A stretch of DNA of 63,443 bases, filler included, from Octopus bimaculoides (Eukaryota): assembly GCF_001194135.2 (NCBI RefSeq). It is 5 parts of 4 records of this genome, joined end to end, with 100 filler letters (N's around TTAATTAATTAA, not from the genome) between each part and the next. Parts side by side here need not be neighbours in the genome. Positions count along the whole stretch, not along the records: positions 1 to 8,122 come from NC_068983.1; positions 8,223 to 16,225 come from NC_068986.1; positions 16,326 to 27,163 come from NC_068981.1; 2 more parts are not named here. The stretch is one strand, 5' to 3'. Positions 55-20,699 of this stretch are shown one piece after another (the stretch's first letter is position 1; each line of letters starts with the position of its first letter). A model generated the notes under the pieces. It was not told the origin of the DNA. It saw only the letters and a program-made list of their open reading frames with translations, and did not search any database. A program made the translations under genes and the position numbers.

Positions 55-120
<66 letters not shown>

Positions 121-335
121 GGCGGCGAGCTAGCAGAATCGTTAGCACGCCGGGGAAAATGCGTAGCGACATTTCTTCCGCCCTTACGGTTTGGGTTCAA
201 ATTCTGCCGAGGGAGACTTTGTCTTTCATCCTTTCGCGATCGATAAATTAAGTACCAGCACAGTACTGGGATCAATGTAATCTACTTCACCCCTCCCCAA
301 AAATTTCAGGCCTTGTGCTTCTAGTAGAAACGATT
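121..335 (+). mobile_element. tRNA-derived SINE family 1 (ggcggcgagctggcagaa head)
   Basis: B-box GGTTCAAATTC, core ctttcatcctttcg..gtcgataaattaagtaccag. Confidence 0.85.
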
Positions 336-1098
336 ATTATTATTATTTTACTTCTCAGACGATTAGCTCTAAAATCATACGTGAGCAGTAATTACGTGTT
401 GCTTATCAACGATGACATTTCTCATCCCTTTTGTGAGACACTACGAATTCGGTTCAATTTTCACCACTTTTCCAGAAATCCTGTCTTGTTCTTCCTCAAG
501 TTTTTCTCACTTTGAGTTCGCGACAATTTTGCGCATTTGCCCTTCTCCATATCCGTACAAACGTTGCCTTTCTCTTGCTCACTGCATCTAATTCTTATTT
601 TACATATACAATTATCCCTCGACAATCGCGGGTGTTACGTTCTAAAAGCCCGCGCGATAGGCGAAAATCTGCGAAGGAGAAACAGTACTGAACATGATAT
701 ATTTTGTTTTTATTTCTATAATTTGTATATATTTATTTTATTATAAATGCAAAACAACACCACAGAGGAATCAATGTAAGCTTAAATAATAAACCACGAT
801 AGGTGAACCGCAATATGGCGAGGGATTACTGTATATGCGTAATTGTGTGTTTACATTTAAAACATAACTACAGAAGCATCGACAATTATGTAAACAAGCC
901 TTCTCTAAATATTGTATATCGAATGCGAATCCAGCTATATGCATGGTTCAGGAACAGATCTTCCCACACTTTAGTTTCAAATGTTTCAGAAGCAAGCAAA
1001 CGGTGTGCACCGGTCCAAACTGTGATAGTAACTGGAAAAAGAAACACTACGGTAGCCCTTAGCTACATAAAGACACCGTTACTACCTGCCTAACTTCA

Positions 1099-6676: not shown

Positions 6677-7446
6677 TTAAGGAAATAACTTATTTTATGA
6701 ATTTAAAACAATCATATTAAAAAATATGTCAAAATGCTTCTGAAGCAAAAACTTCAACGTTAATGATGGGTAAACTGAGTTAACATTAAATGGAGAATCT
6801 TGAAAATTTCAAAAAAAGGAAGAGTTGGTGTTTGAAGATAAGAAATAGATAGAAATACTTACAGGCGAAAACAATGATTATGGTTGCAGCTATTAACGTT
6901 CCAAATAAACAGGGTACAGAACATTTTATATTTTTAGTTGATGATATTAACATTTTCCTGAAAATAATTGAATAGAATAATAATAACAAGCAGAACTTGT
7001 GGAAACTCCATAGTGTAAGTCAGTATATTTGGAAACATTGTTATTATAGTACACATAAGCAAGGAATTTCAAAAAATTCTTTTGAAATTCAGCCATTTAA
7101 TTAAAACTACTTTCAAATATAAACCAAGTGAAGTTAGAAAGCATTGCTTATTTTCCTTCTTTTAATATGTTTGGCAGATATGATGTGCTTTATACTTTGA
7201 GAGAAAAGAAAATGAATTGAAATAATAAAATATATTCGCATATATATATATATATGTATATANNNNNNNNNNNNNNNNNNNNNNNNNNNNNNNNNNNNNN
7301 NNNNNNNNNNNNNNNNNNNNNNNNNNNNNNNNNNNNNNNNNNNNNNNNNNNNNNNNNNNNNNNNNNNNNNNNNNNNNNNNNNNNNNNNNNNNNNNNNNNN
7401 NNNNNNNNNNNNNNNNNNNNNNNNNNNNNNNNTATATATATATATA

Positions 7447-7916
7447 TTAAAGGAAGTGGAAAACAAAACTAAGGCATGACAAGCTTATCAGATCATTTAA
7501 AAATATTTTGATTAATGTAAAGGTAAATCTAAAGAAGGAAAACTAAAAGTAAATAATGTCTTACAACTGTTTCAGGGATATCTCAGGTAATGAATCAATG
7601 TGTAACTTCACGGAAATACGTATAAACCTCCATACCCTCCGGAACAAGATGAACTATGAACCTTATACATCTATCTACTTTAAATTTTCTGTCTAGAACT
7701 TTCCTGCACATACATCTTGTCTCTGATGATGGAATACCCAATGTATGGACATGTTGATCTACACGTTTATCCATTACCTGGGATATTCCAGAAACAGCTG
7801 TAGGACATTATTTACTTTTACTTTCCCTTATTTAGATTTACCTTTACATTAGTTAAAATATTTTAAATGATCTGATAAGCTTGTCCTGCTTTAGTTTTGT
7901 TTTCCTTTTCCTTTAA
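7447..7916. mobile_element. Fold-back element (about 145-bp inverted arms) carrying a hammerhead; probably derived from inverted pseudo-LTRs of a Penelope-like element
   Basis: 7447-7590 is the imperfect reverse complement of 7770-7916 (ttaaaggaa...gacaagcttatcagatcatttaaa...gtaaaggtaaatctaaa...); the hammerhead overlaps the right arm. Confidence 0.7.
7718..7807 (+). ncRNA. Type I hammerhead ribozyme with extended stem II
   Basis: Stem I TGTCT(7718-22)/GGACA(7803-07); core CTGATGA 7723-29; stem II TGGAATA-CCCA.../...TGGG-A-TATTCCA 7730-7790; GAAAC 7791-95; palindromic ACAGCTGT; GTA triplet 7800-02, predicted cut 3' of 7802. Confidence 0.75.
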
Positions 7917-8069
7917 TTTATAACCGCTGACTCAGAAGCTTGCTACGGATCTCTGGCTCCAGCCTCCGAAGTGAACTTGGATCCTAACGGATTACCAGCT
8001 ACAGCACTTACGCAACGTACCTATTTGTTTAGATCATCAGTGACCTAAAACCTTCCTATTCTCTCTCTC

Positions 8070-8122
<53 letters not shown>

Positions 8123-8222
8123 NNNNNNNNNNNNNNNNNNNNNNNNNNNNNNNNNNNNNNNNNNNNTTAATTAATTAANNNNNNNNNNNNNNNNNNNNNN
8201 NNNNNNNNNNNNNNNNNNNNNN
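8123..8222. other. Assembly gap placeholder: 44 N + TTAATTAATTAA + 44 N; same word also at 16270-16281, 27208-27219, 59303-59314
   Basis: Identical 12-mer isolated within Ns four times; palindromic, with TAA in all six frames. Confidence 0.9.
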
Positions 8223-8433
8223 TAGATAAACTTATAACCGACTTATTCTCTAGTGTGATGTTTTTTCTCGGGCATGTGGTTTTCAGAGTCTTTTTCGCAC
8301 TAGATTCTTGACTACTTTTTGGGCTTTGCTCGAAATCTTCACTTAAAATGCGGAACCTATTGGGTAATAAAATTTGTTCTGAATGTTCAGAGCATTTCGT
8401 CTAGCGCTAACGATTCTGCCTGCTCGCCGCCTT

Positions 8434-8514
<81 letters not shown>

Positions 8515-9441
8515 CATAATTATAATTATAATAATAAAAATATTCTAAGACTTTTATATATATGTTCAATTTGTTTCTCTCAGGCTTCAATTATTTGTCT
8601 CAGGCATCTAGCATTAGATTATGAGATTTGACAGCAATATGCGACATGTAGTCTGAAAGTGATGACCAAAGCAACCTTAATTCAGACTCAAAATTGAAAT
8701 TATGATATTAAAAAGTCTTGTAACAAGAATAATTATTCTCCTTCAAAAGTCAATGTATCAGGGAACTGTTCAATATATTTTTGAAATTTATAGAATACAT
8801 AAACACAGTTTGGACTAGAATTTCTATTGATTCTTATGTTTAAATTTGATGTTAATATTAAAAAAAAAGTCATTAAATCAAAATAAAAAGAAAATAGTAC
8901 AGCGAAAAATTACAAAATCTTTTTTTACTTCAACAATCCATTTCCTAGCTTTTGAAGTAAGATTTCATTCTAAAATTGAAAAGAATCTTTGTGCTAACAG
9001 GAAAGGATTTCTACTAGAATTTAGCAATTAAACACGCTCTACCTGTTTTACAAGTTTTCTGTATTCTATGTTTTAACAGGAATATTGTTAGAAACAGCAA
9101 GAAGTTACATTAAAATGATTCAAGTTATTAACTAATATTGCGGATGAAATTCAATCATTGTTATATCCGGTTCCGGTCGTTTAGCAAAAGGAAGTTGTTG
9201 ATGAGAGAATGATAAGGAAAAATATTCACTGGAGCGTGATAGAAAATTGTCTATCACCAAGAGGAAATAGACTCTGAATTTATCTCTCAGGTAATTTAAG
9301 AGTTGTGTGAACTTCTGTTGTGCGTATTTTGTAATTGTTCATATGAACACGGCAAGCAGCATTCCGTTTTTTTTTCGTCTACAACAGTAGTTTTCATTGT
9401 TAACGCTCGTCTGATTTATCAGAATAATTGTCTGCTTTCCT

Positions 9442-9473
<32 letters not shown>

Positions 9474-9517
9474 AATCGTCATCGTCGTCATCGTCGTCGT
9501 CGTTGTCGTCGTCGTCG

Positions 9518-9549
<32 letters not shown>

Positions 9550-10133
9550 CTCCTCCTCTTCCGCCTCTTCTTCCTCATTCACCCTTCTCCCCCCCTTTCT
9601 CTTCATTGTTATTGTTATCGATTTGTATGTTTTTTTTTCATGGTTATGGCTCGGACATAATAGACTGGAATTTATTTTCTTTTGAATTCACTGAATATTT
9701 TGGTCTGGTTGCGTTTACATGAGATATGATAGTTTCAACATGTTTCCCATCGTTTTCTAATACCTCGAGTACGTTTCAATCGATTTGATCTCCAGGCACT
9801 CTTCAGCAGTACTTCCGTTCCCATAGCAAGAACAGCAAACACTTATCACATTGTCTCTCTGATATGAAGTTAGGTTACCCTGAGGTCAGTTATAGTCTGT
9901 AGAATTTGCTTATTCGGTCCATTCGGTTTCAGATCTTTGTTGCTCGTTTGTTTTATCCCTTATCCAATTTTAACTATGTAATACATTTTAAAAGACGGCA
10001 AGCATCGATTATGATTGGTATATTGTGATTGGTACGGTGTAATAAATATATAAATATTGACATAATGAATATATTATATTTATTTACATTATTTACATTT
10101 GACGGATATTTTGTCCTCATCTTGTTTGTCGTT

Positions 10134-10179
10134 AACACAACGTTTCGGCTGATATACCCTCCAGCCTTCATCAGGTGTC
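10134..10179 (-). ncRNA. Minimal type I hammerhead ribozyme (Penelope-like)
   Basis: Minus strand: GACAC-CTGATGA-A-GGCTG-gagggtatat-CAGCC-GAAAC-GTT^GTGTT; 5-bp stems I and II, palindromic AACGTT at stem III. Confidence 0.8.
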
Positions 10180-10450
10180 TTGAGGAAATTTCGAAGCTGG
10201 GTTCTCATTCCTAAGGTATTTTTCGATGTTGTTGTTGTTGTTATTATTATTATTGTTCAGTAGTTTTATTTTTATAACGTGCTTTCACTTCACTACCGAG
10301 CGCAGCTCTGTGCGCCTTGGGTATGTGCTGTGGTTTGCTGTGGTGCTCTTATGTTTACTGTATTGAAAGTGTTTTGCGTAGAATGTGTGCAGTACCCAGT
10401 AGTGCAATTTTCTGTATGTTATATATATTTATATATATTTGTTATATATA

Positions 10451-10514
<64 letters not shown>

Positions 10515-11156
10515 NNNNNNNNNNNNNNNNNNNNNNNNNNNNNNNNNNNNNNNNNNNNNNNNNNNNNNNNNNNNNNNNNNNNNNNNNNNNNNNNNNNNNN
10601 NNNNNNNNNNNNNNNNNNNNNNNNNNNNNNNNNNNNNNNNNNNNNNNNNNNNNNNNNNNNNNNNNNNNNNNNNNNNNNNNNNNNNNNNNNNNNNNNNNNN
10701 NNNNNNNNNNNNNNNNNNNNNNNNNNNNNNNNNNNNNNNNNNNNNNNNNNNNNNNNNNNNNNNNNNNNNNNNNNNNNNNNNNNNNNNNNNNNNNNNNNNN
10801 NNNNNNNNNNNNNNNNNNNNNNNNNNNNNNNNNNNNNNNNNNNNNNNNNNNNNNNNNNNNNNNNNNNNNNNNNNNNNNNNNNNNNNNNNNNNNNNNNNNN
10901 NNNNNNNNNNNNNNNNNNNNNNNNNNNNNNNNNNNNNNNNNNNNNNNNNNNNNNNNNNNNNNNNNNNNNNNNNNNNNNNNNNNNNNNNNNNNNNNNNNNN
11001 NNNNNNNNNNNNNNNNNNCGCCTTGGGTATGTGCTGTGGTTTGCTGTGGTGCTCTTATGTTTACTGTATTGAAAGTGTTTTGCGTAGAATGTGTGCAGTA
11101 CCCAGTAGTGCAATTTTCTGTATGTTATATATATTTATATATATTTGTTATATATA

Positions 11157-11228
<72 letters not shown>

Positions 11229-11316
11229 CTTGGGGTTAGTAGCCAATCAATCAACTGGTTCTTTTCTGGCTGCGGTCCAAGATGTCTGTGTATATACAAT
11301 AATTTATATATCAATA

Positions 11317-11700
11317 TGGCAGAATCGTTAGCACACTGGGCAAGATGCTTAGCGGCATTTCGTCCGTCGTTACATACTGAGTTCAAATTCCGTCGGGGTC
11401 TCTAAAATAAGTACCAGTTGAGCACTGGGGGTCAATCTTACCGACTTAACCCCTTCTCAAAACTGCTGGCCTTGTGCCAAAATTTGAAACCAATACAAGC
11501 CGGCGGACCGGCAGAATTACTTTCGCACCAGGAAAAATGCTGAGTAGCATTTCATTTGTTTTTGTTGTAAGTTCAAATTCCACTGAGCTTGACTTTGCCG
11601 TTTATCTTTTCGGAGTCGATAAAATAAGAACCAAAATGTGGTCGATGTAATCGACTTAACTACTCGGTCGAAATTGCTGTCTTTGTACCAAAATTTAAAA
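11317..11700 (+). mobile_element. Two tandem SINE family 1 copies
   Basis: Two heads with GAGTTCAAATTCC B-boxes, each followed by core and tail. Confidence 0.8.
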
Positions 11701-12218
11701 CCAATATTAATATGCTATATTTGAAACATGTCTTTAATATAATCATAAATGATATATTTTAATTAGTATATTAATACTGATAAATTATAAAAATATCATT
11801 TTTTCTAAATCTCTCTAAAAGTGACTACGTCAGCAGTTCTGGGTATTAATAGTTACCGGCAGGCTAACATGGCAATCCGGAAAAATAGGACGAATGCTAC
11901 CGTTGATTATCTCCAAGAGGTCATCGCCTTCAGCTAGCTATGTGACAAACACACCCGTGTCCATTACAACCTTCGAACAGAGGAAGTCATCAGCTTCCCC
12001 ATGTTGGTTCAAACATCCACAGACTAGTTCCGGGCTATTTGCTCCTTATCAATGTGGAATAGCCGAACCCAGCAGGCGTCGCTGTTGACTCTCTATTCGA
12101 AGGTTTATATATATTCAGTGAAACACCCACAATTTTCAAAATTAGAAATATTATTCAAATTACGATAAACGTAAACAAACAAACGAAGTTTGCTTTTAGA
12201 AGCGTTGAGATGTCTATG

Positions 12219-12431
12219 AAAGTTAAAGAAGTGATTTTAAATTCCCAAACGCAGAATAATGCTAATACTATAGCCTGATCAGGATAAACTACCCCTATTT
12301 TGCAGAAAAAAGTGTAGGCGGCCAAGGCGGCCAGGCTGGCTGCCTACACTTTTTTCTGCAAAATAGGGGTAGTTTATCCTGTTCAGGCTATATTACTAGC
12401 ATTATCACTTTAAAATCACTTCTTTAACTTT
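12219..12431. repeat. Long palindrome with a perfect 40-bp inner stem (MITE-like)
   Basis: 12280-12319 is the exact reverse complement of 12342-12381; outer arms extend to aaagttaaagaagtgattttaaa / tttaaaatcacttctttaacttt. Confidence 0.9.
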
Positions 12432-14255
12432 CTCAGAAATATTATTATTTCTAAATCGCTCTAAAGGAAACTACGCCCGCAGTACTGGGTATTAATAATT
12501 ATCGCCAAGCTAACATGGTGGTCCAGAAAAATAATTGATATAATAACATGGTGTTGAGCGGGTAATTCTGTGCTGTGGGAGGATGTACTACAAGGCTAAA
12601 ATACCAATTCAACATTATGCAAGCGGGTTTCTATTGTCTCTGGTTCCTTGTCCGGCTACAATGCCTTGCCAAACCCATCTAAACTCCATATCTAGAGCAA
12701 GAGCGGACCGCCTTTCTGCTCGTCCTACTAAGAAGCTACTCAAGACCCTTAGAGAAGGCAGCAATCGTTGGTGACATAGCAAGAAGCTCAAAATGGTGAG
12801 CATAGCAAACGCTGATGGTATATGTGCTGTGAGAAATGTTTCTGTGTCATGAACACATTCTTCAACTCATCGTGACCATTATGCTCTCATATTATATATT
12901 ATAGTCAACTTTTTTAAAGTACTGGGTATGACTTGAAACGACATCCAGAATTAGGGCCCTGGTTCGGGAGTTCTAGCGTTTCGAGGAGTGTAGGACCAAC
13001 TCTTAGCCATTATTGGTCTCAGGTCTACTCTGATCCTGTGTACTACCTGTCAGGGCCCCAGATATGGGTTAAATAGCATGTAACCACCCAAACCAGAGTA
13101 CATTGAAATCATGGGATGCAGCATGATGGATGCAAACGATTTCGGCAGATGAATTTATTGAATCAATGGTGGATAACACTAGATGCTGAGCAGATGAAAC
13201 TGACAGTAAACTATCAATGGCCAGGATCAACCAGCTCAGCTAGCAAACTACAGCTATCATCTGTAGTCGTGGTGTGCGCAGATGAGATATTTCAGTTAGA
13301 GAAAGACCAATTTAAGTAAAATACAGGCCAAATAATCAAGCCTCATCGCTCGTACAGGATATCTAGTGTGGAAAAGTTGCATTAGCCCGGGCATGTCACC
13401 CGACGAGAGAAAAAAAATCCTCTTCAATTTTAGTTTAACTAATATATTTAACTACTTTTAAGACGTTAGATTAGTATTTGAGGATTACTTGGTTGCAATT
13501 TCTTACAGTTCGATCGTTTGCGTAGAGGCTTCCTTGCTATCTTATGTGGTAGTGATTGGTCGATTAGGTAGAGCAGCCGACAAAATGTTTTGCTTTCTGA
13601 TTTCAATTTCAGTCAGAGTCATCTTTGTCTTTCATTCTTACTACTTTGTTAAAATGTAGCATTAGTCAAGTATCTAATTTTATCAACCCCGAATAAAAAA
13701 ATCGACTGCTCCACCTACTTCCTTTGTGGTCATGTGATCAATATTAGAAGCTTTATTAACACTCACAGAAATATTGGTTTTTGATTCGTTTGTTCTTCAT
13801 TCCAACCTGTTTATTTCCTTCTCACAAAGTATTTCTTTATTTAATAAGATAACAATCTACTTAAATATGAAGAAGAGGGTACGCGTGTGAGGTTCAAAAT
13901 TTAACATAACAAAAATAATTAATTCACGACTTTTTAGTATGTCAACAAATAAATGATATTCGTTTATTGCAATATATAACTGCAAACTTGAGATTCAAAA
14001 TTTAAGCTTACAAAACTGGTATTCACTTCGAATTATATACATTCTCAAAGATCATCTTCCTTTTTTATTTTTTCTATGTCACTATATTTAAAAATCACCT
14101 TTATTATAGTTGTTACTCAAGAAAACACTTTATAATAATTTTTGTTTATTAGCATTAACCCAAGTTATTAATGACTTATAGGGACACCGTATTTCGTTAT
14201 GCAACCATAATATACGGCGTATACGACACGGCATTTCGTTATGCAACCATAATAT

Positions 14256-14380
14256 GGCGACGAGCTTGCAGAAACGTTAGCGTTCCGGGCGAAATGCTTA
14301 GCGGTATTTCGTCTATATTTACGTTCTGAGTTCAAATTCCGCCGAGGTCAACTTTGCCTTTCATCCTTTCGGAATCGATG
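14256..14380 (+). mobile_element. SINE family 1, 5' half
   Basis: Head, B-box and start of core. Confidence 0.85.
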
Positions 14381-15903
14381 AACGTTTTAATAAGTCATTA
14401 CCTCGTTCAACTGTATTAGCAGTGCTAATCACATCACTTGTTAAGGTTATCTCTACAGATTTTCTATAGAAATTATAGCCAGCACTAATTTTGTTACGAC
14501 GTTTCGTGACCGAGACGCACGATGTAAAAAAACAACGAAATCGAAGATGAAAAATGGGTACTGGACGTAAATGCCATATTTCAGTTTTTGTTTCTTTTAC
14601 AGCACCCATCCTACTCATTAATTATCCACGAACACATTGCTTAAAAAGCTACTAAATATAACAGTGTAACACTATTGGATATACCAATCTTACATATGAA
14701 ACACATTCCTGTAAGCTGATACGTAAATGTTAAAGAGCTGTAGGGTCACGGCATTTCGTTATGCAACCATTATATACCACAAACTATATTACTCAAGCTG
14801 AACACACCTATTACCACTCTTACTATAACAATAATACCGAATATTATGTTTACCCTTTCTTATATCGCCACATACTAAAAAGGATGCGCCGGGGATCATT
14901 AGACCTGTTAGAAATAGCAACCAAATCTCCCTTAAACCATACCGTCTTAAAAAATGATACGTTGGATAGAATTGACCAGTATATACTGCATCCGAATTAA
15001 AGTCGGAATGGTCATGGCTGGAATACTTTTAATAAAGGTCTGCTTGTTTAGGACCGACCTGAAAAAAAAAATCAAAGCAACAAAACAACAACAGCAACAC
15101 CAACTCTCTTCAATCACTCGATTTGTTCGAATTGACATCCAAATGTCTTTCAAAGTCTTTCATTGGCAGAAATTCCTGTCCCCGATTCAATGAAATATAC
15201 ATGAAGAGGAAAAAATCGAACGTTTCGAGCGGAGCCTTTTTGGAATATCTTGTATTTTACAAATTTTATTGACTAGTTTTATTTTCACCAACTTTTTATC
15301 ACCAATTTTCATCACAGACAACTGGATTGTTTTTTAACCAATGCCTCGGATCGATCAAAACTTCGTGAAGTTTGTTAGATTGAAATTGTGAAAATCTGCA
15401 AGGGAGACCGTTACCTATTCTTGGGTGGTTGACTTAAAACTGTCAGCCGGATCAAAACACTGAGTGACCCAACGCTTTCCTTGAATCTATTTTGTTTCAG
15501 TCATTTGAGCCAGGTTTTCAGACCGAGAACTTTCTTCATTCCTTTATCGTGGAGACCTTAAAAATGTCCATAAGCGCCACCATTCCTACTCCCGCTAAAC
15601 CGTTTGATTTTTTTCCCTTTTAAATATTAATTTCCTTGGATTAGATTTCTCGGGTTGTACTTTCCTCCTGATACATTAGTATTTTACTCTTTTACTGTTT
15701 TCAGTCACTGGACTACGGCCATACTGGGGCAACCAGGGTTTTAGTCGATCATATCGACCTCGGTAAATATTTTAGTCTGGTACTTATTTTGTCGGCATCT
15801 ATTTGTTGAGATATAACATGATGAACAATAACAATAATTCTGAGACTTGTTGTTACCAAACATTAAAATAAAATACCTACCAACTAAATTTGCACGAACC
15901 AGC

Positions 15904-15949
<46 letters not shown>

Positions 15950-15952
<3 letters not shown>

Positions 15953-16225
15953 CAGAGCTCAATGCTAAAACAAGATAATGGGTATCAACACTTTAGCTGT
16001 CCCAGTTATAAGCTACAGCTACAACATCCTTAACTGGACACTAAACGAACTATGTAAAATAGACAGGAAAACAAGAAAAATAATGACAGGATATAGGATG
16101 CACCACCCAAAATCTGACATAGAAAGGCTGTATATACAACGCACAGAAGGTGGCAGGGGTCTTATACAGCTAGAAAACTATTATAAAATAACCACCATAG
16201 GACTGCAAAAATACCTACTCCAGAA
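15950..16225 (+). mobile_element. R4/Dong-clade (RLE) LINE fragment, RT C-terminal part
   Basis: INTLAVPVISYS..LNW....IDRKTRKIM...HHPKSDIERLY..R.EGGRGL; starts directly after (TAA)n, ends at a gap. Confidence 0.8.
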
Positions 16226-16325
16226 NNNNNNNNNNNNNNNNNNNNNNNNNNNNNNNNNNNNNNNNNNNNTTAATTAATTAANNNNNNNNNNNNNNNNNNN
16301 NNNNNNNNNNNNNNNNNNNNNNNNN

Positions 16326-16370
<45 letters not shown>

Positions 16371-16849
16371 TTTTATTCTATTATTTATTTCAGTCATTGG
16401 ACTACGGCCTTGCTGGAGCACTACCTTGAACGGTTTAGTCGAACGAATCGACCCACAGTACTTCTCTTTTTCTTTTCTAACGGCCACTTTGGCCGAACCG
16501 CAAAGTTGGGGGGGACGTAAACAAACCAGCACAAGTTTGTCCCAAACCACCGCTTGACAACCGACGTTCGTTTTGTTTGTGTCCTCGTAAAATAGCAGTT
16601 CGACAAACGTCGTTGATAGAATAAGTGCCAGGCTTTTAGAAAATTTGAGTGCTGAGATCGATTCGTTCAACTAAAACCCTTTAAAGCGGTACCTCAGTAA
16701 GGCCGCTGTCCAATGACTGGGACAAGTAAAAGATAAAAGAGATATGTGTATGTGTTTGTGTGTGTGTGTGTGTCTGTGTGTCTGTGTGCTTACATATATA
16801 AAAGTATACATGTAAAAATATTTATGTATATATAGATATGCATTCGCAC

Positions 16850-16893
<44 letters not shown>

Positions 16894-16975
16894 ACAGTCA
16901 GACTGGCAGATAGATGCATGCGTGTGCGTGTGTATTATGGGATAAATTCAAACAGAGAGAGAGAGAGAGGGAGAC

Positions 16976-17041
<66 letters not shown>

Positions 17042-17502
17042 AGAAAGATAGTTAGAAGGCTGAATGACAAGAGACAGGTGAAGAAAATGAATGAATGAGG
17101 GGATTAATTAATGAATGAATGTGTGAGAAAATGCAGAAAATTGGAGTAAAGGGAAGTAATAAGTAAATATTCGCTTGTCATTAGTAAATATACAGTGAAC
17201 AGCGAATTGTGGTAAAAATAAAAACCAACGTCCATATTCATTGCTCTTCGATAAAACACGCGCTCTCTCTCTTTTTCACTATTCCTCTCTTCGCCTTCCT
17301 CTTGTTGTTTCCTTTCTCTCTCACTTTCTATATTCTTCATCTGTATCTTTTGTTATATATCAAAATGATCGTTATAAATCGATACAATATGTAATTCAAA
17401 TTCATCATCCCTGTCGTATTTGTGCTGAGAACAGGGCGTTATGGATTGCGTGCCTATGTATATACGTGTATCTGTGTGTGTGGTGTGTTTATGTATGTTT
17501 GT

Positions 17503-17559
<57 letters not shown>

Positions 17560-18801
17560 CAATTAAACCTTGGGAGAGGCATTATGCCGGTAATAAACAC
17601 ACGCACTGGTTCAGTCCTTTATTAATTTATATAGTTTTTTGTTAAATTATTTCATTGCACTCTTGCAATCTCTTCAGTAACTTGTCTCTCCACTTCCATT
17701 TATTTTGAATATATGATCTGGCGTTGTTTTGGCGTTGTTTCGAAACTGTTTGGTATGAGCATGTGAGTGTGTGCAAGCTCGTATGTGTGCACGCTCATAT
17801 GTGTGCACGCACTTATGTGTTCGTGCTNNNNNNNNNNNNNNNNNNNNNNNNNNNNNNNNNNNNNNNNNNNNNNNNNNNNNNNNNNNNNNNNNNNNNNNNN
17901 NNNNNNNNNNNNNNNNNNNNNNNNNNNNNNNNNNNNNNNNNNNNNNNNNNNNNNNNNNNNNNNNNNNNNNNNNNNNNNNNNNNNNNNNNNNNNNNNNNNN
18001 NNNNNNNNNNNNNNNNNNNNNNNNNNNNNNNNNNNNNNNNNNNNNNNNNNNNNNNNNNNNNNNNNNNNNNNNNNNNNNNNNNNNNNNNNNNNNNNNNNNN
18101 NNNNNNNNNNNNNNNNNNNNNNNNNNNNNNNNNNNNNNNNNNNNNNNNNNNNNNNNNNNNNNNNNNNNNNNNNNNNNNNNNNNNNNNNNNNNNNNNNNNN
18201 NNNNNNNNNNNNNNNNNNNNNNNNNNNNNNNNNNNNNNNNNNNNNNNNNNNNNNNNNNNNNNNNNNNNNNNNNNNNNNNNNNNNNNNNNNNNNNNNNNNN
18301 NNNNNNNNNNNNNNNNNNNNNNNNNNNNNNNNNNNNNNNNNNNNNNNNNNNNNNNNNNNNNNNNNNNNNNNNNNNNNNNNNNNNNNNNNNNNNNNNNNNN
18401 NNNNNNNNNNNNNNNNNNNNNNNNNNNNNNNNNNNNNNNNNNNNNNNNNNNNNNNNNNNNNNNNNNNNNNNNNNNNNNNNNNNNNNNNNNNNNNNNNNNN
18501 NNNNNNNNNNNNNNNNNNNNNNNNNNNNNNNNNNNNNNNNNNNNNNNNNNNNNNNNNNNNNNNNNNNNNNNNNNNNNNNNNNNNNNNNNNNNNNNNNNNN
18601 NNNNNNNNNNNNNNNNNNNNNNNNNNNNNNNNNNNNNNNNNNNNNNNNNNNNNNNNNNNNNNNNNNNNNNNNNNNNNNNNNNNNNNNNNNNNNNNNNNNN
18701 NNNNNNNNNNNNNNNNNNNNNNNNNNNNNNNNNNNNNNNNNNNNNNNNNNNNNNNNNNNNNNNNNNNNNNNNNNNNNNNNNNNNNNNNNNNNNNNNNNNN
18801 N

Positions 18802-18838
<37 letters not shown>

Positions 18839-19139
18839 GGCGCGTGGCCAAGAGGTTAGAATCCTGCGCTCACGATAGCTAGATCGTGGAGCCTGCTCGT
18901 GGACTGAGCGGTGTGTTGGGTTCTCGAACAAAGCACTTCATTTCACGTCGCTCCACTCCATTCAGCTGTAAATGGATAACCCTACAACGAACTCGCCTTC
19001 CGATCCGAAGGAATGTTGCCTTACTAGCCAAGCCAGTGGAGTGGCATCATTCCAAGGCTAAAATAATGCAAAGCGCACTGTATTCAGCGATGTATAACAA
19101 CAGCTGACAGGCTGGTCGATCATTAGATTACTTGATTTA

Positions 19140-19286
19140 GTGTGTGTTTGTGTGCGTGTGAGTATGTGTGTGTATGTGCTTGTGTGTGTGTGAGTGTGTA
19201 TGTGTGCGCGTGTACGTGTATGTATGTGTGTGTGTTTGTGTGTGTTTGTTTGTGTTTGTGTGTGTGTGTTTGTGTGTGTTTGTGTT

Positions 19287-19318
<32 letters not shown>

Positions 19319-19440
19319 CGTGTGTGTGTGTGCGTGTGTGTGTGTGTGCGCGTGTATGTGTGTAAGTGTGTGTGTGTGTTTGCGTGTGTTTGCGTGTGTG
19401 TGTGTGTGCGTGTATGCGTGTGTGTGTGCGTGTGTGTTTG
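19140..19440. repeat. Long interrupted (GT)n microsatellite, one of many simple repeats in the window
   Basis: Others: (TTA)n 1-118, (TACA)n 1600-1650, (TAA)n 8435-8535, (GA)n 16955-17040, (TAA/CAA/CAG)n 22955-23075, (CA)n 58451-58534. Confidence 0.95.
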
Positions 19441-19683
19441 TTTTGGTAGAGAAAACAAGATAACCAGAACTTGAAACATGGGTAAATATATTATATTTTT
19501 AATCTCCAGAATTTACAAATTGACTCAAGGGCTGATAGTTTCGTTCCTGCTGCTTATCAGTCATATCAAGTGTATGTATGTAGTCAAATCGAACATTAAA
19601 AATAACAAATAACAAAACAAGAAACGAACGTACATATGGAATTATTAACTTGGCGCTCAGTAAAGGCAGAAAAAAGAGCGGGT

Positions 19684-19720
19684 TCTTCTACGTTTCGAGC
19701 ATAGCTCTTCGTCAGAAAGA
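19684..19720 (-). ncRNA. Minimal type I hammerhead ribozyme (Penelope-like)
   Basis: Minus strand: TCTTT-CTGACGA-A-GAGC-tat-GCTC-GAAAC-GTA^GAAGA; 5-bp stem I, 4-bp stem II, palindromic ACGT at stem III. Confidence 0.72.
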
Positions 19721-20043
19721 TGAGAAAGGAAAGGTCCAGAGAAGGAAGTCCAGGAAAAGCATATGTCTGGTGGTTACATGGTTGCAGGATACATGGATTG
19801 ATGGATATATAAATATACAAAAAGGAAAAACGGTCGGAGAAGCTGACATCGTTTTTCTAGGCCACGTGATCCTTTCGGAAGGAAAGTAGTATTCTGCTTG
19901 TTTAAACTCTTTTCAGAGCCGGTCGAAAATGTAGGTGAAAATTAATATTACTAAAACCTTTTCACGCACCCACTAATCGTGCAATTACGATGAACGTAAA
20001 CAAACAAACGAAGTTTGCTTTTAGAGGTGTTGAGATGTCTTAG

Positions 20044-20208
20044 AAAGTTAAAGAAGTGGTTTTAAATTCTCAAACGCAGGATAATGCTAATAATAATGCT
20101 AATAATAGCCTGAACAGGATAAACTACCCCTATTTTGCAGAAAAAAGTGTAGGCTATATTATTAGCATTATCCTGCGTTTGAGAATTTAAAATCACTTCT
20201 TTAACTTT
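20044..20208. repeat. Second copy of the 12.2 kb palindrome with its centre deleted
   Basis: Same left arm and same upstream flank (acgtaaacaaacaaacgaagtttgcttttaga); left arm fused to the outer right arm at an AGGC microhomology. Confidence 0.85.
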
Positions 20209-20699
20209 ATTAGATTTTATATTTATAAAAAACACAAATTCTATAGACATTATCGAAACAAAACCATTTTCTTTTTGTGTATTCGTTTCTGTTTTCGTTT
20301 TTCTCAAAAATCATGCGAATCTTTGAGTTGTAATATACTGAAAATGATTTTCCATCCAAAAAGCAGAAACTTCACAAACTTGCATTCTCTGGAGTTGTCC
20401 TTATCAAACCTTGCAGGAAAGCAATCGTGGCTTACCTGAGAAAAAGTAGATTAGTAAAATAATCCTAAATATCTCAACCAGGAAAATAATGCAGCTTTTC
20501 TATACAAAAAAATAATGACATCGGTAAGGCATATCCTCCTTTCAAGCATTCAGATATTAACAGCAAGTAACCAAATGTTTACTTTCTTTCTTCTTTAGCA
20601 GTAATTACTTTTCTTACCTTATAGCAAATGCTTAAAACGTGTGTAAGATATGGTTAATATTCTCTTCAGTCTTTCTTTTTGTGGCATCAATATTGATAT

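What the first reader, a model, noticed from the sequence alone, without database searches (positions are those of the whole stretch)
7718..19720. Three different intact hammerhead ribozymes in 12 kb, all with palindromic stem III (dimer-type)
Seen: three unrelated repeat contexts each contain the full catalytic core (CUGANGA, GAAA, GUH) with correctly placed stems I and II. The stem sequences differ completely between copies, yet pairing holds. In all three, stem III is reduced to a self-complementary word (ACAGCTGT, AACGTT, ACGT). Established: minimal type I hammerheads of this kind are carried by Penelope-like elements and non-LTR retrozymes, and cleave as dimers through that palindrome. 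Inference: this genome hosts several independent ribozyme-bearing retroelement families. Any transcript crossing these sites in the right orientation could be cut, or processed into small circular RNAs.
Basis: partly seen in the sequence, partly recalled or inferred. Interest (0 to 1): 0.78.

Follow-up and report, generated by a model that had tools for sequence, protein, structure and literature searches.

The report
Octopus Penelope-type hammerhead ribozyme stubs
Three real self-cutting-RNA (hammerhead) motifs sit here as lone copies, likely left-over end-pieces of three different Penelope-type jumping genes in an octopus-like genome, a kind already described in many animals and probably inert at this spot.

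Summary
Three type I hammerheads with palindromic helix III lie at 7718-7807 (+), 10134-10179 (-) and 19684-19720 (-); 1 of 200 shuffles gave even one. The host looks like an octopod (best dynein match Argonauta, 75%). H2 and H3 fit the published consensus of minimal hammerheads in Penelope-like element (PLE) pseudo-LTRs exactly. H1 is a variant with an 8-nt palindrome and a 61-nt helix II. H1 has the PLE hallmark of an adjacent inverted, truncated copy. No PLE coding remnant was found, so the PLE link is architectural. The functional inference is weak: each motif is solo, H2/H3 cross-dimers mismatch, and H1's inverted arm is predicted to mask its cut site. Three RNA runs showed no read 99% or more alike, no cut-site ends and no back-joints. 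Verdict: new members of a known kind, likely dead stubs.

The parts
7441..7604 (-). Inverted, 5'-truncated copy of the H1 element (matches 7760-7922). It holds only the 3' half of the hammerhead, with the palindrome broken, and abuts a (TA)n tract
   Evidence: 145 of 163 aligned bases identical. The junction to the direct copy is spanned by a 224-nt contig with 0 differences in DNA runs X1 and X3
7606..7717 (+). Upstream part of the direct H1 copy, truncated at about 7606
   Evidence: Other genomic copies and RNA reads continue with different letters before 7606 (loose ends)
7718..7807 (+). H1: type I hammerhead, 61-nt helix II domain, helix III palindrome ACAGCTGT; predicted cut between 7802 and 7803
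   Evidence: family depth peaks on both halves of the core
7808..8050 (+). Downstream part of the H1 element (family similarity runs to at least 8049), followed by (CT)n/(TA)n
   Evidence: depth table and loose ends at 8049
10134..10179 (-). H2: minimal type I hammerhead, extra A after the core, G10.1-C11.1, palindrome ACGT; predicted cut between 10139 and 10138
   Evidence: Family copy number not tested
10180..10227 (-). 48 nt upstream of H2, starting directly after an (AAT)n(AAC)n tract; likely the 5' truncation point of the stub
   Evidence: Sequence; boundary inferred
10257..10420 (-). 3' end of a separate LINE-like stub (peptide QKIALLGTAHILRKTLSIQ-stop) whose (AAT)n tail precedes the H2 stub
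   Evidence: Translation. The R4/Dong/Hero-type label is recalled from the motif and comes from no call
19684..19720 (-). H3: minimal type I hammerhead, extra A, 4-bp helix II, palindrome ACGT; predicted cut between 19689 and 19688
   Evidence: depth 8514 on the core against 8.9 on the unique flank in X1
19575..19760 (-). Approximate extent of the H3 repeat stub (about 185 nt)
   Evidence: Depth profile and contig pieces
28879..58782 (+). Context: exons of an axonemal dynein heavy chain (DNAH7-like) gene, 9-21 kb downstream of the motifs; its 5' end was not mapped

Best explanation
The three motifs are sequence-intact type I hammerheads that likely are solo, 5'-truncated pseudo-LTR stubs of three different Penelope-like retroelement families, and are probably inactive at this locus. 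In the parent element the ribozyme would sit just after the reverse transcriptase/GIY-YIG gene. Two copies in a tandem transcript would pair through the palindrome, swap stem I strands and cut out a unit-length element RNA (inferred from published work). Reverse transcription into AT-rich or microsatellite DNA often stops early and leaves only the 100-450 nt end, sometimes with an inverted partial copy, as at H1. Shown here: motifs, multi-copy families (H1, H3), inverted arm, microsatellite flanks, no coding remnant detected, no partner copy in 63 kb. Inferred: PLE origin, dimer cleavage, inactivity.
For: H2 and H3 match the published consensus CUGANGAH-G..C-GAAAN-palindrome-NUH (supplement of PMC4209133). 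The same table has AGCU-loop and 8-10-nt-palindrome variants like H1. DNA runs laid 488, 636 and 489 contigs on the H1 stretch and 344 and 410 on the H3 stretch, with depth peaking on the ribozyme. H3 variants at 10% or more fall mostly on N7, loop II and the stem I side (40 of 45 rows shown). In both families the window's U.G pair next to the cut site is U-A in 94-97% of depth. H1 has the head-to-head inverted truncated copy described for PLE insertions (PMC8557442 passages). The H2/H3 architecture occurs in at least 122 metagenome loci. In 7 of 68 such hammerheads with 400 nt or more upstream (two rows are one contig fetched twice), a GIY-YIG remnant lies 170-240 nt upstream on the same strand. 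In L086 an RT+GIY-YIG ORF ends about 165 nt before the motif. Across 27 outside representatives plus H2 and H3, 89.7% of stem cells pair against 69.5% in shuffles (0 of 500) and 22-45% when slid. Arms differ by 11%, so the H1 copy is old.
Against: No RT or GIY-YIG remnant was found anywhere in the window (best HMM score 5.3 bits, no tblastn hit at E<0.05 with 120 PLE-type proteins), and no whole genome was available, so no autonomous partner is tied to any of the three families. 61 of 68 outside hammerheads also lacked an upstream remnant, and 4 had one on the opposite strand. H2 was never laid, so its family status rests on architecture alone. The covariation is between families picked by a pattern that fixes the core and partly constrains helix II. 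Within-family compensatory pairs are only hinted at (19698/19706 in equal read counts in X22 and X23; 208 H1 variant rows were not shown). Conservation of the core in laid contigs is partly circular. U4 of the H3 core is C in 38% of depth. All three motifs are still intact, which is also what selection would give.
Confidence: 0.82

Rival explanations
1. One or more families are non-autonomous retrozyme-like elements that exist elsewhere in the genome as short tandem repeats and give small circular RNAs; the window holds solo monomers.
For: One DNA contig in each of X1 and X3 goes back 171 nt from 19747 to 19577, i.e. a tandem-like junction of the H3 unit. The abstract of 10.64898/2026.07.22.740005 argues that animal retrozymes derive from PLE pseudo-LTRs, so this is compatible with the best explanation.
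Against: No tandem copy in the window. Described retrozymes carry canonical hammerheads in 150-450 bp tandems, whereas minimal ones are assigned to PLEs and Terminons (PMC7229834 passages). No back-joint in X21, X22 or X23 (about 6% of each run read). The letters between the two sides of the 171-nt joint are not known.
Confidence: 0.1
2. The host has kept one or more of the motifs, for example H1 (sense to the dynein gene), to cut or regulate an upstream or first-intron transcript.
For: H1 is intact although its arms differ by 11% and the arm's own palindrome is broken. H1's double-hammerhead fold is predicted 4.9 kcal/mol below two monomers. The dynein 5' end is unmapped, so H1 could lie in a long first intron.
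Against: With the inverted arm present, all stem I, II and III pairs of H1 have probability 0.0 and 7791-7807 pair with 7557-7573. At about 5.5% drift per arm, 17 core bases stay intact by chance about 4 times in 10 (my arithmetic). 0 of 341 RNA reads were 99% or more alike and 3 were 95-99% alike. H2 and H3 are antisense to the dynein gene.
Confidence: 0.05
3. H2 is the normal 3' end of the adjacent LINE-like element, i.e. a LINE family that carries a hammerhead.
For: H2 lies on the same strand 48 nt after the LINE stub's microsatellite tail.
Against: An (AAT)n(AAC)n tract separates them, and PLEs favour microsatellites and AT-rich targets. The motif is the PLE type. Not tested on other copies.
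Confidence: 0.03

Closest known systems
Minimal hammerheads (min-HHR) in pseudo-LTRs of metazoan Penelope-like elements (Cervera and de la Pena 2014, PMC4209133; parts 1-2 of 4 of the text and part 2 of 3 of one supplement read)
   Same: Type I topology, extra nucleotide after CUGANGA, G10.1-C11.1, short helix I, palindromic helix III, many families per genome, mostly solo copies, some in opposite-strand pairs. Mollusc examples (Lottia, Crassostrea) are listed.
   Different: No octopus entry in the searched supplement files (file 1 could not be searched). H1 has a far longer helix II domain (61 nt) than any row I saw in that table, and an A between C11.1 and GAAA.
PLE insertions with an inverted 5'-truncated copy (Craig et al. 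2021, PMC8557442; Arkhipova et al. 2013, PMC3846280; passages only)
   Same: Head-to-head inverted arm next to the direct copy, a one-sided extension, microsatellite neighbours.
   Different: No ORF here, and the one-sided extension of H1 is about 130 nt rather than 30-40 bp.
Poseidon PAc hammerhead of Anolis (PMC11167929; passages only)
   Same: PLE pseudo-LTR hammerhead; no RNA-seq ends at the cut site; AT-rich targets.
   Different: PAc was assayed and needs its protein to cleave; nothing was assayed here.
Non-LTR retrozymes (Cervera and de la Pena 2020, PMC7229834; passages only)
   Same: Type I hammerheads in non-coding animal repeats, some acting as dimers.
   Different: Retrozymes are tandem arrays with canonical hammerheads and abundant circular RNA; these are solo minimal motifs.

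Membership tests
PLE-type minimal type I hammerhead | Core CUGANGA ... GAAA ... UH with helix I closing both ends | tested here: met
   All three; 5-bp helix I in each
PLE-type minimal type I hammerhead | Extra nucleotide (H) between positions 9 and 10.1 | tested here: met
   A in H2 and H3; U in H1, C in about half of family depth
PLE-type minimal type I hammerhead | G10.1-C11.1 pair directly before GAAA | tested here: inconclusive
   Met in H2 and H3. H1 has G7731-C7789 but an A at 7790 before GAAA (or a U-A closing pair); one AGAAA row exists in the published table
PLE-type minimal type I hammerhead | Palindromic helix III | tested here: met
   ACAGCTGT, ACGT, ACGT; homodimer cross pairs 18 of 18, 14 of 14, 14 of 14
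PLE-type minimal type I hammerhead | Multi-copy family with variable stems and conserved core | tested here: inconclusive
PLE-type minimal type I hammerhead | Self-cleavage as a dimer | not testable with these tools
   Needs in vitro assay; RNA runs showed no ends at the cut sites
Penelope-like element | RT plus GIY-YIG ORF linked to the pseudo-LTR | tested here: not met
   No remnant in the window; family-wide linkage could not be tested without a genome
Penelope-like element | Inverted 5'-truncated copy or partial tandem | tested here: met
   H1 only; H2 and H3 are single stubs
Penelope-like element | Insertion at microsatellite or AT-rich DNA | tested here: met
   H1 between (TA)n and (CT)n/(TA)n; H2 after (AAT)n(AAC)n. 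Weak, since such tracts are common in this window
Non-LTR retrozyme | Head-to-tail tandem repeats with a hammerhead in each unit | tested here: not met
   None in the window; one 171-nt go-back contig for the H3 family elsewhere
Non-LTR retrozyme | Abundant circular RNA | tested here: inconclusive
   No back-joint in 3 RNA runs at about 6% depth; the libraries are not designed for small circles
Rfam hammerhead families | Score against Rfam 15 models | tested here: not met
   No hammerhead family at E<=1 (window) or E<=10 (local stretches)

The most novel reading that the evidence does not exclude
The H1 family is a hammerhead-bearing fold-back mini-element with a built-in off switch. Its long, length-variable helix II, a downstream stretch (7882-7903) that can pair over the cut site, and an inverted arm that makes a 163-bp RNA duplex would let it cleave only in its own tandem transcript and stay silent, or be A-to-I edited, in host read-through RNA. 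The H3 family may in addition form 171-nt tandem, circle-producing units.
Probability: 0.08. Interest if true: 0.55.

Novelty: new member of a known kind. Interest (0 to 1): 0.2.

Why it matters
It extends a known association (PLE pseudo-LTR hammerheads) to an octopod genome and shows that Rfam misses these motifs, so they can serve as markers for PLE families in cephalopod repeat annotation. Two literature searches (hammerhead ribozyme + octopus; hammerhead + cephalopod + ribozyme) listed no paper devoted to octopus PLE hammerheads. The giant squid genome paper reports 235 Rfam hammerhead-1 hits, and an Octopus vulgaris repeat paper lists 31 recently active Penelope-like families with no occurrence of 'hammerhead' or 'ribozyme' in its main text. 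H1's long helix II is a usable natural variant for testing what these ribozymes tolerate. It would matter more only if host transcripts were really cut or the fold-back switch were real.

Tried and rejected
Whole genome: none held. Family-specific patterns found nothing in metagenome contigs (H1) or prokaryote genomes (H2; H1). A generic pattern gave 12 viral loci, read by eye only and not used. PLE coding remnants: none by a 91-sequence GIY-YIG profile, tblastn or Pfam on 71 of 117 upstream ORFs. The ORF starting inside H2 has no homolog at E<=1. Cross-family dimers: H2 x H3 share ACGT and a strand but form only 3 of 10 stem I cross pairs; H1 x H3 form 7 of 10 but lie on opposite strands with unequal palindromes. 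A general downstream anti-ribozyme element was not supported in 35 outside families: no effect for helix II (83 of 200 permutations as low), and for the cut site the own-upstream control was as strong as downstream (-8.0 vs -7.8). For H1 alone 1.3% of shuffles matched, one of five window tests. My first idea that H1's left arm holds a whole second hammerhead was dropped. Clustering in 12 kb (P 0.10) and absence from the dynein exon span (P 0.13) are not significant. L069 was left out of the alignment as a likely chance hit. Lunse et al. (dimer cleavage) is not held and is known only through a review passage. The LINE stub could not be classified because the representative search never ran. One search was uninformative.
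Full report
Observation. A descriptor scan of both strands found four type I hammerhead candidates in 60,118 non-N bases, three with a palindromic helix III: H1 (+ 7718-7807), H2 (- 10134-10179) and H3 (- 19684-19720). In 200 local dinucleotide shuffles one palindromic hit appeared once. The bare core pattern gave 3 matches against 0.02 expected. The three share no flank similarity. Helices I and II appear in the predicted folds. Rfam 15 has no hammerhead hit. The clustering itself is not significant (P 0.10).

Host and context. No genome was held. Exons of a DNAH7-like dynein heavy chain run from 28879 to 58782 on the + strand; the best match is Argonauta hians at 75%, so the host is most likely an octopod. 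The first 55 residues of that protein could not be mapped, so the motifs lie 9-21 kb upstream of the first mapped exon and may or may not be in a 5' intron. H1 is sense to the gene; H2 and H3 are antisense. 71 of 117 upstream ORFs were scanned with Pfam and none reached a curated cut-off.

H1. 7441-7604 is an inverted copy of 7760-7922 (145 of 163 identical). A 224-nt contig with no difference spans the junction in DNA runs X1 and X3; X1 may be the source sample. 488, 636 and 489 contigs were laid on the 606-nt stretch, the last from a run with another species label. Depth in X1 peaks at 2563 and 3710 on the two core halves, against about 30-1350 elsewhere. The family has A at 7803 in 97% of depth (U-A; U.G in this copy), C at 7787 in 94% and C at 7730 in about half. 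Several joints show relatives with a shorter helix II. 208 variant rows were not shown, so compensatory pairs could not be read. Family similarity continues to at least 8049. This is the head-to-head 'inverted 5'-truncated copy' layout described for PLE insertions (PMC8557442 and PMC3846280, passages). In a read-through RNA the arm is predicted to take 7791-7807 and to reduce every hammerhead pair to probability 0.0. Without the arm, helix II forms but the cut site pairs with 7882-7903.

H3. Depth is 8514 (X1) and 65748 (X3) on the core, against 8.9 and 46 on the unique flank; the tool warns that this is not a copy number. The stub spans about 19575-19760. Variants at 10% or more (40 of 45 rows shown) fall mainly on N7, loop II and the stem I side. 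19688 gives U-A in 94% of depth. U4 is C in 38% of depth. 19698 and 19706, a helix II pair, change in equal read counts in both RNA runs. One contig per DNA run goes back 171 nt.

H2. It starts 48 nt after an (AAT)n(AAC)n tract that ends a LINE-like 3' stub. Its family status is inferred from architecture.

Comparison set. A pattern covering H2 and H3 found at least 122 metagenome loci, apparently mostly animal DNA, in about 35 families. Several carry PLE-type ORFs. 7 of 68 hammerheads with enough upstream DNA have a same-strand GIY-YIG remnant 170-240 nt upstream (two rows are one contig), 4 have one on the opposite strand, and L049 and L073 show head-to-head pairs. On 27 representatives plus H2 and H3, 89.7% of stem cells pair (shuffles 69.5%, 0 of 500; slid controls 22-45%), and 6 of 8 pairs change on both sides. 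The pattern fixes the core, so only the stems are informative. The same profile finds nothing in the window (best 5.3 bits).

Expression. X21: 341 reads on H1, none 99% or more alike, 3 at 95-99%. Most come from a diverged relative whose 34-nt insertion also exists in DNA. The only end pile-up is at 7567, not at the cut site. X22 and X23: 37 and 16 reads on H3, none at 95% or more, no end pile-up, no joint. Only about 6% of each run was read and the libraries are ordinary paired-end RNA-seq, so this is a weak negative.

Mechanism. Shown: motif, families, inverted arm, solo state. Inferred from published work: the parent PLE transcript carries two pseudo-LTRs whose palindromes pair and whose stem I strands swap, releasing unit RNA. 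Homodimers form all cross pairs; H2 x H3 forms only 3 of 10 stem I cross pairs. Only H1's double-hammerhead fold is predicted below two monomers (-58.1 vs -53.2; H2 -22.3 vs -25.2; H3 -11.1 vs -17.8; tertiary contacts ignored). Published minimal hammerheads showed no monomer cleavage and low dimer cleavage (PMC4209133). The Anolis PAc ribozyme needed its protein and left no RNA-seq ends (PMC11167929). Lone stubs are therefore probably inert.

Known and new. H2 and H3 fit the published consensus, and H1 resembles the listed variants with longer palindromes. PLEs are abundant in Octopus vulgaris. Two searches listed no paper devoted to octopus PLE hammerheads. Two earlier scan reports on other genomes reached the same reading; they are not independent evidence. 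One supplementary file of PMC4209133 and the bioRxiv supplements could not be seen and may list cephalopod cases. Verdict: real, ordinary, new members of a known kind; H1's long helix II and fold-back are the only points of mild interest.

Noticed in passing
window 9770-9806 (-): Correctly spaced hammerhead core (CTGAAGA ... GAAACGTA) 330 nt downstream of H2, but helices I and II do not pair; possibly a decayed fourth family.
   Followed up: partly
window 17641-17681 (-): Fourth descriptor hit: 4-bp helix I and 6-bp helix II, non-palindromic ATAAT; a decayed motif or chance (shuffle mean 0.085).
   Followed up: no
window about 15215-15250 (-): 3' half of an H3-like motif (GCTCGAAACGTT) without a CTGANGA box; its flanks do not align to H3 better than shuffles.
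   Followed up: partly
window 7882-7903 (+): Stretch downstream of H1 predicted to pair over its cut site (-15.3 kcal/mol, 1.3% of shuffles); no such general effect in 35 outside families.
   Followed up: partly
window 19714: 38% of family depth has C instead of U at core position 4 of the H3-type motif: a common natural core variant of unknown activity.
   Followed up: no
window 19577-19747: One contig in each of two DNA runs goes back 171 nt, hinting at a tandem H3-family unit elsewhere in the genome.
   Followed up: no
window 7780-7789: With the family's C at 7787 this strand of H1 helix II is itself a 10-nt palindrome.
   Followed up: no
window 12158-12455 and 19983-20229: Two related fold-back (MITE-like) elements, 88% alike over 172 nt.
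   Followed up: no
window 54983-55167 (+): The Rfam lncRNA model RMST_9 scores 53 bits (E 9e-6, below its cut-off of 65) on a dynein heavy chain coding exon.
   Followed up: no
window 15969-16220 (+), 60731-61111 (+), 35349-36418 (-), 57189-58135 (-): Fragments that look like LINE (first two) and mariner transposase (last two) relics; labels recalled from motifs, and Pfam found nothing for the first two.
   Followed up: partly
window 116-347, 11302-11633, 14251-14451, 26893-27163 and others: Many dispersed copies of a SINE-like repeat, and a roughly 26-nt degenerate tandem array at 24.5-25.4 kb.
   Followed up: no
window 10313-10420 and 11019-11126: Identical 108-nt stretch on both sides of an N gap, probably an assembly duplication.
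   Followed up: no
L049:3401-4197, L073:4001-4278, L036:588-693: Outside loci with head-to-head hammerhead pairs (L049, L073) and a same-strand pair 76 nt apart (L036).
   Followed up: no
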